Positions 36,401 through 48,368 of a stretch of DNA of 64,000 nt are shown here, piece by piece. Source of the stretch: the human T2T-CHM13v2.0 reference genome, Homo sapiens; assembly GCF_009914755.1 (NCBI RefSeq), contig NC_060937.1; one strand, given 5' to 3'. Numbering within the stretch: position 1 is the stretch's first letter; each line of letters starts with the position of its first letter. The translations under genes and the position numbers were made by a program. The notes beneath the pieces were generated by a model. The model saw only the letters and a program-made list of their open reading frames with translations, did no database searches and had not been told where the DNA came from.

Positions 36401-38495
36401 GCGGCGTCCTTGTTATCGATGCTGTGGAATCCATCTTCGTTAGCAATGCACTGGACGGCATCCCAGTTGGCGATGTCCTGGACGGCATCCCAGTTGGCGA
36501 TGCACTGGGCGGCATCCTCGTTAGCAATACCGTGGATGGCGTCCTCGTTAGCGATGCCCTGGACGGCGTCGTTAGCGATGCCCTGGATGGCGTCCTCGTT
36601 AGCGATGCCCTGGACGGCGTCCTCGTTAGCGCTGCCCTGGACGGCGACCCCGTCGCCGAGGCCGTGGACGGCGACCCCGTCGGCGAGGCCGTGGACGGCG
36701 TCCACGTCGGCGAGGCCCTGGACGGTGTCCTCGTTATCGATGCCGTGGACTCCATCTTCGTTAGCGATGCCCTGGACGGCGTCCTCGTTAGCGATGCTCT
36801 GGACGGCGACCTCATTAGGGATGCCGTGGACGGCCTCCTCGTTAGCGATGCCCTGGACGGCACCCCGTTGGCGATGCTGTGGAAGGCGACCCTGTTGGCG
36901 AAGCCGTGGATGGCGACCCTGTTGGCGAAGCCGTGGACTGTGTCCCAGTCGGCGATGCCCTGGACGGCGTCCCCGTCGGCGATGCCCTGGGCGGCGTCCC
37001 CGTCGGCGATGCCCTGGGTGGCGTCCTCGTTGGCGATGCCGTGGAATCCATCTTCGTTATTGATGTCCTGGACAGCATCCCAGTTGGCGATGCCCTGGGC
37101 GGCTTCCTCGTCAGCGATGCCGTGGACGGCGTCCCCGTCGGCGATGCCCTGGGCGGCGTCCCAGTCGGCGATGCCGTGGACAACCCCGTCGGCGATGCCG
37201 TGGACGGCGACCCCGTCGGCGATGCCCTGGACGGCGTCCCCGTCGGCGATGCCGTGGAAGGCTTCCCTGTTGGCGATGCCCTGGAAGGCATCCTCGTTAT
37301 CGATGCCCTGGGCGGCGTCCTCGATATCGATGCCGTGGAATCCATCTTCGTTAGCGATGTCCTGGACAGCATCCCAGTTGGCGATGCCCTGGGCAGCGTC
37401 CTCATTAGCGATGCCGTGGACGGCGTCATCGAGAGCGATGCCCTGGACGGCGTCCCCGTCGGCGATGCCGTGGAAGGCTACCCCGTCGGCGAAGCTGTGG
37501 ACGGTGCCCCAGTTGGCGATGCCCTGGACGACGTCCCAGTTGGCGATGCCCTGGACGGCGTCCTCGTTATCGATGCCGTGGAATCCATCTTCGTTAGCGA
37601 TGTCCTGGACAGCATCCCAGTTGGCGATGCCCTGGGCGGCGTCCTTATTAGCAATGCCGTGGACGGCGTCATCGAGAGCGATGCCCTGGGCGGCGACCCC
37701 GTCGGCGATGCCCTGGGCGGCGTCCCAGTCGGCGATGCCCTGGACGGCGTCCTCGTTATCGATGCCGTGGAATCCATCTTCGTTAGCGATGCAGTGGACG
37801 GCATCCCAGTTGGCGATGTCCTGGACGGCATCCCAGTTGGCGATGCCCTGGGCGGTGTCCTCGTTAGTGATGCCGTGGATGGCGTCATCGTTAGTGATGC
37901 CCTGGGTGGCGTCCTCGTTAGCGATGCCCTGGACGGCATCGTTAGCGCTGCCCTGGACGGCAGCCCTGGACGGCAACCCCGTCGGCGACGCCGTGGACGG
38001 CGTCATCGAGAGTGACGCCCTGGACGGCGTCGTCGTTAGCGACGCCCTGGATGGCGACCTCGTTAGGGATGCCGTGGATGGCCTGCTCATTAGCGATGCC
38101 CTGGGCAGCGTCCTTGTTCGCGAAGCCCTGGGTGGCATCCTCTTTAGTGATGCCATGGACGGGGTCCTCGTCAGCAATGAGCTGGACTGCATCCTCGTCA
38201 GCGATGCCCTGGACGGCGACACCATCAGCGATGCCATGGACGTCGTCCCCTTCAGCGATGCCCTGGGTGGCGTCCCCGTCAGCGATGCCCTTGACGGCGT
38301 CCCCATCAGCGAAGCCGTGGACGGCGTCCCTGTCAGCGAGGCCCTGGATGGCGTCCCAGTCAGCGATGCCGTGGACGGCGTCCTCGTCGGCGATGCCCTG
38401 GACGGCGTCCTCGTCGGCGGTGCCATGGACGGCGTCCTCGTCGGTGGTGTCGTGGACGGCGTCCTCGTTCGTGATGTCGTGGATGGTGTCCCCAT
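33470..38495. repeat. ~5 kb CpG-rich VNTR, 27-bp unit (GATGCCCTGGACGGCGTCCTCGTTAGC) with 24-bp variants, roughly 185-190 units
   Basis: Directly visible; unit length is a multiple of 3, which explains long ORFs on both strands. Confidence 0.98.
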
Positions 38496-47400: not shown

Positions 47401-48368
47401 CATTATGCAAATGTAGACTTTAGATAATAATGTATCAATATTTTCTCATTATTCTAGCAAATGTACCACAGTAATGTAAGATGTTACTAATAGGTGAAAT
47501 TAGGAAGTGAGGATGAGGAGACAGAATAATATGGGAACTTCGTGTATTATATACTCAATTTTTATTTATTTATTTATTTATTTATTTATTTTGAGATGGA
47601 GTTTCACTCTTGTCACCCAGGCTGGAGTGCAATGGCATGATCTTGGCTCACTGCAACCTCTGCCTCCCGGGTTCAAGCGATTCTCCTGCCTCAGCCTCCT
47701 GAGTAGCTGGGATTACAGGCGCCTGCCACCATACCGGGCTAATTTTTTTGTATTTTTAGTAGAGATGGGGTTTCACCATGTTGGCCAGGCTGGTCTCCAA
47801 CTCCTGACCTCAGATGATCCGCCTGCCTTGGCCTCCTAAAGTGCTGGGTTTATAAGCGTGAGCCACCACGCCTGGCCATATGCTCAGTTTTTATGTCAAT
47901 TTAAAACTCTCTAAAGAAATATATTAATTGAAAAATAATAATATAGCACCACTCTTTCAGGGAGATCTATGCTTATGTTTAACAACCAGGTAAGTTCTAG
48001 ACATTAGCTTGAAACATTGTCTATCATTAAACATGAACCACAATTGACTTTTAAGTAGATATTTACTTTTGTGGTTGTAGCAATATTTACTGACCAGGCA
48101 AATTAGAATCCTGACACATTAAAAAATATGGCTTAGTCTCTTCATAGTTTCCTCTTACATATGGGACACTGAATACTCCCCGCAATTGCAATTCTTGAAG
48201 CAACTTAATTAATGAACTTCCACAGTACCTTCTTGTGGGTACATCTTCTTCTTTACCGGGAAGCCATGAGGTCTCCGACACTGGTTGGTGTGCACAGCAT
48301 ATCTTCTTGTATTCTCTATCAGAGAAGATGCTGGTTAACGCATTTACAATAGATAGGGCTGTTGACAT
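37942..48368 (-). CDS. Putative spliced ORF (~277 aa): unique N-terminus plus acidic 9-aa repeats
   Basis: join(48368-48257,43339-43274,41271-41210,40744-40711,38501-37942) = 834 nt; ATG to TAA, no internal stop, all GT-AG, phases 1,1,0,1. Translation unproven. Confidence 0.4.
39750..39926 (+). mobile_element. L1P 3' end fragment
   Basis: gcaaacctgcacatcctgcacatgtacccctgaacttaaaagtt + poly(A). Confidence 0.85.
42250..43205 (+). mobile_element. L1M 3' fragment
   Basis: aatgggcaaaagactt...attagtcattagggaaatgcaaat...cattatgcttagtgaaataagccagacacaaaagg. Confidence 0.8.
44130..44980 (+). mobile_element. Old L1M fragment interrupted by an Alu (44200-44477)
   Basis: L1M 3' motifs and Alu consensus. 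Confidence 0.65.
46320..47876. mobile_element. L1 fragments (plus, 46320-47500) and AluS (minus, 47560-47876)
   Basis: gcaaaagcagtccttagagggaaat, aaaaccaaaagctggttctttga, aaagcaccaggcccagatgg; Alu consensus. Confidence 0.8.

What the first reader, a model, noticed from the sequence alone, without database searches (positions are those of the whole stretch)
37942..48368. Hidden five-exon ORF in a FAM230-type lncRNA that splices into the acidic frame of the VNTR
Seen: minus-strand exons 48368-48257 ([37 protein letters not shown], donor gtaaag), 43339-43274 ([22 protein letters not shown], gtaaag), 41271-41210 ([21 protein letters not shown], gtaagg) and 40744-40711 ([11 protein letters not shown], gtaagt). 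An acceptor with ctgac, a pyrimidine tract and aag precedes 38501. Phases 1,1,0,1 join without stops and enter the repeat as [27 protein letters not shown]..., the acidic (DAVQGIANE)n frame. This is not the basic (PSRASLTRT)n frame shown by the unspliced ORF track. The ORF stops at TAA 37944-37942 (277 aa). Established: FAM230 genes are catalogued as lncRNAs. Inference: the family descends from, or still encodes, a VNTR-scaled, highly acidic 9-aa-repeat protein. Caveat: I selected the exons by eye, which inflates the apparent phase agreement.
Basis: partly seen in the sequence, partly recalled or inferred. Interest (0 to 1): 0.8.

Follow-up and report, generated by a model that had tools for sequence, protein, structure and literature searches.

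The report
Unconstrained spliced ORF in FAM230C
The five pieces do join into a 277-codon reading frame, and the same layout is open in the chromosome 22 FAM230 copies, but it shows no sign of selection and looks like a young by-product of a stop-poor minisatellite.

Summary
The sequence facts hold. The five minus-strand pieces join to 834 nt, giving 277 codons and a TAA at 37944-37942. All donors are GT and all acceptors AG.

Only the three middle pieces are RefSeq FAM230C exons. In NR_027278.1 the ATG at 48368 is intronic. The chosen donor lies 28 nt before the annotated one. The acceptor at the array edge lies 300 nt beyond the annotated 3' end.

The layout is family-wide. In all 8 young chr22 copies the same acceptor leads into the acidic frame, which stays open for 309-1411 codons.

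Three results argue against a selected protein:
- 6 of the 8 copies carry TAG at codon 31 of exon 1.
- pN/pS against the ~80% identical chr18 copies is 0.86-0.89, no lower than in the off-frames.
- The repeat units show no third-position excess.

The ORFs are acidic/basic mosaics. The exon 1 block and the exon 2-to-array block have different older relatives.

ORFs in FAM230 genes, and peptides for related UniProt entries, are already in print.

Verdict: a real but probably unselected ORF, and a new member of a known kind.

The parts
48257..48368 (-). It is not the RefSeq exon.
   Evidence: The ATG and donor are kept in 8 of 8 young chr22 copies, but TCG>TAG at codon 31 occurs in 6 of 8. The donor is absent in 3 of 3 older copies and the ATG in 2 of 3.
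48229..48315 (-). Its acceptor AG is at 48317-48316 and its donor GTACTG follows 48229.
   Evidence: Hub gene table. The annotated donor is kept in 11 of 11 paralogs. With it, the annotated transcript reads MYPQE.. into the same exon 2 frame.
43274..43339 (-).
   Evidence: The sequence and both splice sites are kept in 8 of 8 young copies. The chr18 copies have a 3-nt shorter version. The exon is replaced in the older chr22 copy at 23.9 Mb.
41210..41271 (-).
   Evidence: Kept, with splice sites, in all 11 copies examined.
40711..40744 (-).
38802..40315 (-). The exon 2-4 frame stops inside it.
   Evidence: Hub table and (95-codon ATG ORF ends here). The 3' end at 38802 abuts a genomic run of 8 A. 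The nearest signals are ATTAAA at 38867 and AATAAA at 38975.
38502..38527 (-). Candidate acceptor: CTGAC, pyrimidine tract, AAG. An in-frame TGA lies at 38526-38524.
   Evidence: The AG is kept in 11 of 11 other copies, all of which have TAG where chr13 has AAG.
37942..38501 (-). Acidic-frame piece: 185 codons, then TAA.
   Evidence: No Pfam family above cut-off. No confident fold, pLDDT 37.5 from a single sequence.
33472..38491 (.). 27-bp minisatellite of about 186 units. The consensus unit is open in two frames on each strand.
   Evidence: My segmentation gave 185 units, 161 of them 27 nt long. Open frames are listed.
33411..38828 (-). Single-exon open frame of 1805 codons. It starts with ATG at 38828 and runs basic, then acidic (about 37960-36870), then basic.
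37914..37977 (-). Irregular units of 36 + 28 nt (net +10).
36865..36890 (-). 26-nt unit (net -1), the second frameshift of the array.

Best explanation
The five-piece ORF is the chr13 version of an ORF layout shared by the FAM230 segmental-duplication family. Three short annotated exons have a single open frame. A conserved AG at the edge of a GC-rich 27-bp minisatellite puts that frame into the acidic reading of the repeat.

The ORF is long because the repeat unit lacks stops in two of three frames on each strand, not because a protein is maintained. It is young, assembled from blocks of different origin, and evolves without detectable constraint.

In FAM230C it needs an intronic ATG, an unannotated donor and skipping of the annotated last exon. 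A frameshift also cuts it to 185 repeat codons. FAM230C is therefore most likely what it is catalogued as, a testis or spermatid lncRNA. Any translation of this frame would be low-level or pervasive, of the proto-gene kind.

Shown: the anatomy, the paralog comparison and the lack of constraint. Inferred: that the ORF is not maintained by selection, and that translation, if any, is incidental.
For: - Junction support: 2 of 4 junctions match RefSeq, and the first and last do not (hub table).
- Freedom of choice: 9 comparable first-exon candidates. 50 of 439 AGs give at least 100 open codons.
- Repeat openness: 4 of 6 frames carry very long open stretches, including 1716 codons on the plus strand.
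- No coding periodicity: mean variability by acidic-frame codon position is 15.9, 13.3 and 16.6%. I averaged these by hand from the table of 161 units.
- No depletion of the stop-making change: C>T at unit position 10 occurs in 0 of 161 units. At the other non-CpG C positions it occurs in 6, 1, 3 and 0 of 161.
- TAG at codon 31 in 6 of 8 chr22 copies. Complete ATG-to-stop ORFs exist only in chr13 (277), copy D (425) and copy G (545).
- Mosaic origin: chr18 homology covers only window 44940-38498. Exon 1 has its older relatives at chr22 32.65 and 32.83 Mb.
- The chr18 copies have about 2 units and a stop after 24 codons, so the array is a later expansion.
- The chr22 ORFs switch between acidic and basic-like runs by frameshift.
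- Print: FAM230 ORFs are noted as present but of unproven coding status (PMC7098633, passages). FAM230C RNA is reported in spermatids (PMC9834047, one passage).
Against: - The acidic-entry frame is the longest of three in 8 of 8 chr22 copies. These copies form only about three lineages.
- The splice dinucleotides of exons 2-4 and the array-edge AG (14 nt) are all intact in the ~80% identical chr18 copies. By my arithmetic 0.8^14 is about 0.04.
- Net length changes in the chr13 array are multiples of three in 13 of 15 non-zero groups. This is my hand tally, and many groups are probably copies of a few events.
[quoted passage not shown] Its preprint says FAM230A peptides are almost all from testis or sperm (PMC12679747, PMC11601488, passages). 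I could not see the peptides or which frame they are in.
- Four of the 13 distinct exon 1-4 differences between chr13 and the chr22 copies fall at synonymous sites of exon 1 (hand count).
Confidence: 0.6

Rival explanations
1. The FAM230 family, FAM230C included, still encodes a testis protein: a short unique N-terminus followed by a length-variable acidic 9-residue repeat, made from a spliced isoform that ends in the array.
For: - The acceptor is conserved in 11 of 11 copies.
- The acidic-entry frame is open for 309-1411 codons in 8 of 8 copies.
- Full ORFs exist in chr13 and copies D and G.
- ORF sizes are near the 440 and 454 aa quoted for the FAM230A transcript ORF (10.1101/826784 and PMC7098633, passages).
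- Testis peptides are reported for FAM230-type entries (PMC12679747, PMC11601488).
- FAM230A RNA is testis-specific (PMC7436996, one passage).
Against: - Nonsense codon in exon 1 in 6 of 8 copies.
- pN/pS is about 0.9, and the units show no codon periodicity.
- The ORFs are acidic/basic mosaics.
- RefSeq gives neither end junction for FAM230C.
- By Delihas's coordinates, FAM230A matches FAM230C only over window 44572-39415, so it lacks this exon 1 (PMC5906017 passage, my conversion of coordinates).
- No Pfam family.
Confidence: 0.17
2. The ORF is the decayed remnant of an older protein-coding gene. Its C-terminal exon expanded into the array, and the FAM230 genes are its unprocessed pseudogenes.
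For: - The same frame is open, with intact splice sites, in the ~80% identical chr18 copies, ending 24 codons after the same acceptor.
- The exon 2 frame is also open in a fragment at chr22 25.16 Mb (my reading of the row).
Against: - No constraint between chr13 and chr18.
- No start exon is shared with chr18.
- No Pfam match. No relative turned up in the large protein search, although that library may hold no primate proteins.
- No parent gene could be named.
Confidence: 0.08
3. The product that matters is the unspliced single-exon frame through the array (ATG at 38828, basic repeats), the Q9UF83-type ORF. It is translated aberrantly in cancer cells, and the spliced acidic frame is never made.
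For: - An open frame of 1805 codons runs 33411..38828.
- The audit places the closest genomic match of Q9UF83 in a single exon on the chr13 p arm and reports 20 peptides, all from cancer cell lines (PMC12679747 passage).
- The annotated 3' end abuts an A run, so transcripts may run on into the array (inference).
Against: - The T2T frame is a basic/acidic/basic mosaic.
- The audit gives at most 93% identity to any genomic ORF.
- That Q9UF83 is in the basic frame is my recollection, not a call.
- This reading does not exclude the spliced frame.
Confidence: 0.12

Closest known systems
FAM230A transcript ORF (UniProt A0A1W2PPH8, quoted as 440 or 454 aa) and the cDNA-derived entry B4DYQ5 / BAG63817.1
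   Same: - Same gene family.
- Testis expression and testis peptides are reported (PMC7436996, PMC12679747, PMC11601488).
   Different: - I could not see these sequences, so identity of exons and frame is inferred.
- The chr13 ORF is cut to 277 codons by a frameshift.
Q9UF83, uncharacterized protein DKFZp434B061
   Same: It is made almost wholly of degenerate 9-residue repeats. Its best genomic match is a single exon on the chr13 p arm (PMC12679747), which fits the array here.
   Different: It corresponds to an unspliced frame. I recall it as the basic Ser/Thr/Arg/Pro-rich one, and this recollection comes from no call. It overlaps the acidic frame by one base of shift and has no N-terminal exons.
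Young, unconstrained ORFs in testis lncRNAs (proto-genes or de novo ORFs); general knowledge, not from a call
   Same: A testis-expressed lncRNA, an ORF without constraint, a lineage-restricted distribution, and possible low-level peptides.
   Different: Here most of the ORF length comes from a minisatellite. The ORF is multiplied by segmental duplication, so its length and frame differ from copy to copy.
Coding minisatellites such as the mucin tandem-repeat domains (recalled)
   Same: Protein length would scale with repeat number.
   Different: Mucin repeats keep one frame and show constraint. This array shifts frame repeatedly and shows none.

Membership tests
FAM230 lncRNA or segmental-duplication family | High nucleotide identity to the other FAM230 copies across the exons and the array flank | tested here: met
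   Eight chr22 copies match at 98% over 2.8 kb, 95-96% over exon 1 and 92-93% at the array flank.
FAM230 lncRNA or segmental-duplication family | Linkage to a GGT-related module | not tested
   The hub table lists GGT4P, LOC124907100 and LOC101060145 at window 1-17221. PMC7098633 describes FAM230C-LOC101060145-GGT4P. I did not examine those sequences.
FAM230 lncRNA or segmental-duplication family | Testis-restricted RNA | not testable with these tools
   Literature only: PMC5906017 and PMC6162681 for the chr22 genes, PMC9834047 for FAM230C in spermatids.
Conserved protein-coding gene | Purifying selection on the frame (pN/pS well below 1 and below the off-frames) | tested here: not met
   0.86-0.89 against 0.61-0.67 in the off-frames, chr13 vs chr18, exons 2-4.
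Conserved protein-coding gene | Start-to-stop ORF intact across paralogs | tested here: not met
   Intact in 2 of 8 chr22 copies. TAG at codon 31 in the other 6.
Conserved protein-coding gene | All junctions present in an annotated transcript | tested here: not met
   2 of 4 junctions match NR_027278.1 (hub table). Other transcript sets could not be consulted.
Conserved protein-coding gene | Third-position excess of variation among repeat units | tested here: not met
   15.9, 13.3 and 16.6% by codon position (hand means).
Conserved protein-coding gene | Peptide or ribosome evidence that maps uniquely here | not testable with these tools
   The audit papers call the related entries unplaceable (PMC12679747).
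Q9UF83-type single-exon repeat ORF | Long single-exon ORF of degenerate 9-residue repeats on the chr13 p arm | tested here: met
   33411..38828, 1805 codons.
Q9UF83-type single-exon repeat ORF | Sequence identity to Q9UF83 | not testable with these tools
   No tool gave the entry's sequence. The audit quotes at most 93% (PMC12679747).

The most novel reading that the evidence does not exclude
One polymorphic minisatellite is read in two overlapping frames. The first is a spliced testis isoform giving a short N-terminus plus an acidic (DAVQGIANE-like) repeat. The second is an unspliced transcript giving the basic repeat seen as Q9UF83-type peptides. Copy-specific frameshifts would then make each FAM230 paralog and haplotype yield a different acidic/basic chimera, forming a rapidly evolving family of germ-cell repeat proteins born in segmental duplications.
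Probability: 0.1. Interest if true: 0.65.

Novelty: new member of a known kind. Interest (0 to 1): 0.3.

Why it matters
If the spliced acidic frame were really made, FAM230 would be a case of a protein family created and diversified by minisatellite expansion inside the 22q11 low-copy repeats. Protein length and charge would differ between copies and people.

As it stands, the result mainly warns against over-reading. A GC-rich repeat that lacks stops in four of six frames will produce very long ORFs, and apparently meaningful phase agreement, without selection.

The result also gives a concrete exon and frame map for placing the testis and cancer-line peptides that the PeptideAtlas audits could not place.

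Tried and rejected
- Protein search of the acidic piece against the 5.8-billion library (longer proteins): no hit at E <= 0.001. The library may lack primate proteins, so this says little.
- Pfam on the acidic piece, the 1068-codon acidic run and the 1805-codon frame: nothing above cut-off.
- Single-sequence structure prediction of the acidic piece: mean pLDDT 37.5, uninformative. No fold search was run.
- Full-text search for four short peptide strings from the ORFs: 0 papers.
- Search for B4DYQ5, A0A1W2PPH8, BAG63817 and AK302553: 3 papers, none printing a sequence in the passages I read.
The audit's peptide tables and Delihas's alignment figures, which could settle the frame of the known entries, were therefore not seen.
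- assembled the chr22 ORFs with exon 1 one base short, an artefact of gapped BLAST ends. It is void, and one search replaces it.
- One search failed with a script error, and one search replaces it.
An 8-kb request was granted, so the chr18 comparison reaches only to 12,344,500.
- Rejected: a relic of a known domain family, because there was no family hit.
- Rejected: a purely chance ORF, because the layout recurs in all copies.
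Full report
**1. What is in the sequence**

Their donors are GTAAAG, GTAAAG, GTAAGG and GTAAGT, and an AG precedes each of the four downstream pieces. Joined, they give 834 nt with end phases 1, 1, 0, 1. 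The ORF is 277 codons and ends at TAA 37944-37942. CTGAC, a pyrimidine tract and AAG precede 38501. The repeat is a 27-bp array at 33472-38491.

**2. How the model compares with the annotation**

The hub's table for NR_027278.1 gives exons 48315-48229, 43339-43274, 41271-41210, 40744-40711 and 40315-38802.

It is intronic in that model.

In the annotated transcript, the exon 2-4 frame is the only open one; the other two have 3 and 4 stops. It is open for 146 codons from the 5' edge of the window part. It holds a 95-codon ATG ORF (MYPQE..) that ends in the annotated last exon.

**3. How much the phase agreement is worth**

- In the 8661 nt upstream of exon 2 there are 145 ATG..GT combinations ending in phase 1. 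Nine of them have at least 40 nt and at least 4 of 7 matches to the donor consensus.
- Downstream of exon 4, 50 of 439 AG sites give at least 100 open codons in phase 1. Six of these lie before the array, and five of the six lead to the basic frame.
It has the best pyrimidine tract of the six, 15 of 18.

The ORF as such is easy to obtain. The specific acceptor is the one non-trivial element.

**4. The array**

The consensus unit is open in two frames on each strand. Stop-to-stop frames of 1805 codons (minus, 33411..38828), 1716 codons (plus, 33370..38520) and 1068 codons (minus, 33850..37056) cross it.

The 1805-codon frame starts at an ATG at 38828. It reads basic repeats, then acidic repeats between about 37960 and 36870, then basic repeats again. 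The acidic reading is correspondingly split over two genomic frames by two frameshifts. These are a 36 + 28-nt pair of units at 37977-37914 and a 26-nt unit at 36890.

Among 161 regular units, variability by acidic-frame codon position is 15.9, 13.3 and 16.6% (my hand means from the table). There is no coding periodicity in either frame.

The change that would create TAG in the acidic frame is C>T at unit position 10. It is seen in 0 of 161 units. C>T at the other non-CpG C positions is also rare (6, 1, 3 and 0 of 161), so there is no detectable depletion.

One oddity remains. Of 15 non-zero net length changes in the array, 13 are multiples of three (hand tally). Many are probably copies of a few events, and triplet microhomology could explain them. 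I still list this as evidence against pure neutrality.

**5. Paralogs in the same genome**

The assembly holds the following copies:

| Copies | Location | Identity / coverage |
|---|---|---|
| 8 young copies (here A-H) | chr22 | 92-98% |
| 1 older copy | chr22, 23.9 Mb | older, lower identity |
| 2 copies | chr18, 10.79 and 12.36 Mb | about 80-85% |
| 2 relatives | chr22, 32.65 and 32.83 Mb | about 70%, exon 1 block only |

*Exon 1.*
- The ATG and the GTAAAG donor are kept in 8 of 8 young copies.
- 6 of the 8 have TCG>TAG at codon 31.
- The annotated donor is kept in 11 of 11.
- The MYPQE start of the annotated ORF is AGG in 7 of 8 young copies.

*Exons 2-4.* Sequence and splice sites are kept in 8 of 8 young copies and in both chr18 copies, where exon 2 is 3 nt shorter. 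The 23.9-Mb copy has exon 2 replaced.

*Acceptor.* The AG is kept in all 11 other copies. All have TAG where chr13 has the weaker-looking AAG. L031/L033 and L032/L034 are overlapping loci of the same two chr18 copies.

*Frame after the acceptor*:

| Copy | Acidic-entry frame (codons) | Basic-entry frame (codons) |
|---|---|---|
| A | 360 | 171 |
| B | 354 | 297 |
| C | 324 | 135 |
| D | 333 | 144 |
| E | 353 | 164 |
| F | 1411 | 62 |
| G | 453 | 396 |
| H | 309 | 252 |
| chr13 | 185 | 1696 |

In chr22 the acidic-entry frame is always the longer one, and chr13 is the reverse. These chr22 ORFs are mosaics. Acidic runs give way by frameshift to basic-like runs and back. Copy F is about 400 acidic followed by about 1000 basic codons.

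The other six are interrupted only by the codon-31 TAG and are then open to codons 402-1504 (one search was a faulty extraction).

**6. Constraint and origin**

For chr13 against chr18 over exons 2-4:
- There are 35-36 differences in 162 nt (22%). The neighbouring non-exon blocks differ by about 17-21%.
- Between chr13 and the young copies I count 5 synonymous, 7 non-synonymous and 1 nonsense distinct changes in exons 1-4 (hand count). This is too few to tell from neutrality.

The chr18 homology runs collinearly from window 44940 to 38498 and stops there (within the 20 kb of chr18 I could hold). It covers exons 2-4, the annotated last exon and the array edge, but not exon 1.

After the same acceptor, the chr18 copies have about two repeat units and a stop after 24 codons. 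The array is therefore a later expansion, and the five-piece ORF joins blocks with different histories.

**7. What is in print**

- Delihas notes that FAM230 sequences carry large ORFs and gives a 454-aa ORF for the FAM230A nonsense-mediated-decay transcript. He names BAG63817.1 as carrying it (PMC7098633, passages).
- The preprint version gives 440 aa (A0A1W2PPH8), 85% identical to a 727-aa chimpanzee model. It also mentions DKFZp434B061-like chimpanzee models (10.1101/826784, passages).
- FAM230A is said to match FAM230C nt 32771-37928 (PMC5906017, passage).
- The PeptideAtlas audit says Q9UF83 consists of degenerate 9-residue repeats and has 20 peptides, all from cancer cell lines. Its best genomic match is a single exon on the chr13 p arm, at no more than 93% identity.
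- The same audit says B4DYQ5 is distantly related, nearest to FAM230D, with peptides in testis and cancer lines (PMC12679747, one passage).
- The audit's preprint lists FAM230C with 19 strong peptides as aberrant. It lists FAM230A with 6 peptides, almost all from testis or sperm, as unplaced (PMC11601488: sections 18 and 19, plus passages from the discussion and tables).
- FAM230A RNA is testis-specific (PMC7436996, one passage). FAM230C is among the most Y-spermatid-specific transcripts (PMC9834047, one passage).

None of the passages I read says which repeat frame the entries use. A search for four peptide strings found no paper, and a search for FAM230 with ribosome profiling found only these audits and unrelated papers.

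That Q9UF83 is the basic, Ser/Thr/Arg/Pro-rich frame is my recollection.

**8. Reading**

The layout is real and family-wide, and the acceptor at the array edge is its best-supported new element. Nothing indicates a maintained protein:
- there is no constraint;
- a nonsense codon sits in most copies;
- the frame switches freely between acidic and basic;
- the origin is mosaic;
- in FAM230C itself, two junctions are unannotated and a frameshift truncates the frame.

I put 0.6 on an unselected, young ORF in a testis lncRNA, with incidental translation at most. I put 0.17 on a real acidic-repeat testis protein, 0.08 on a relic of an older coding gene, and 0.12 on the unspliced basic frame being the only product that matters.

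Since ORFs of this family and related peptides are already described, this is a new member of a known kind. Interest is 0.3.

Noticed in passing
It could serve as an alternative acceptor that brings the ATG into an exon. The chr22 copies lose the first AG and keep the second. It is unannotated in the RefSeq model.
   Followed up: partly
window 38794-38802: The annotated 3' end of NR_027278.1 abuts a genomic run of 8 A. The nearest poly(A) signal (ATTAAA) is about 60 nt upstream. There is no signal inside the array, and the next AATAAA is at 32942. The annotated end may be an internal-priming artefact, in which case transcripts run on into the array.
   Followed up: partly
window 33370-38520, plus strand: A 1716-codon stop-free frame crosses the whole array on the opposite strand as well. 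This shows how little ORF length means here.
   Followed up: no
window 35947-36310: A 120-bp higher-order repeat (3 copies, 95% matches) lies inside the array. It carries the two +12-nt unit variants.
   Followed up: no
L031/L044 (chr18 12.35-12.364 Mb) and L032/L045 (chr18 10.79-10.80 Mb): Two inverted chr18 copies at about 80-85% identity carry exons 2-4, the last exon and the array edge, with only about two repeat units. They represent a pre-expansion state of the locus.
   Followed up: partly
L019, L020 (chr22 32.83 and 32.65 Mb): About 70% identical relatives exist for the exon 1 block alone. This points to a separate origin of that block.
   Followed up: no
L050 (chr22 20.757-20.767 Mb, copy F): This copy has the longest ORF from the shared acceptor: 1411 codons, about 400 acidic then about 1000 basic. 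It is a candidate source of Q9UF83-like peptides.
   Followed up: no
window 48229-48315 and upstream exons 51261-51285, 51754-51812: In the annotated transcript one frame is open through all exons held in the window, 146 codons from the 5' edge. The first exon lies outside the window and was not examined for an in-frame ATG.
   Followed up: no
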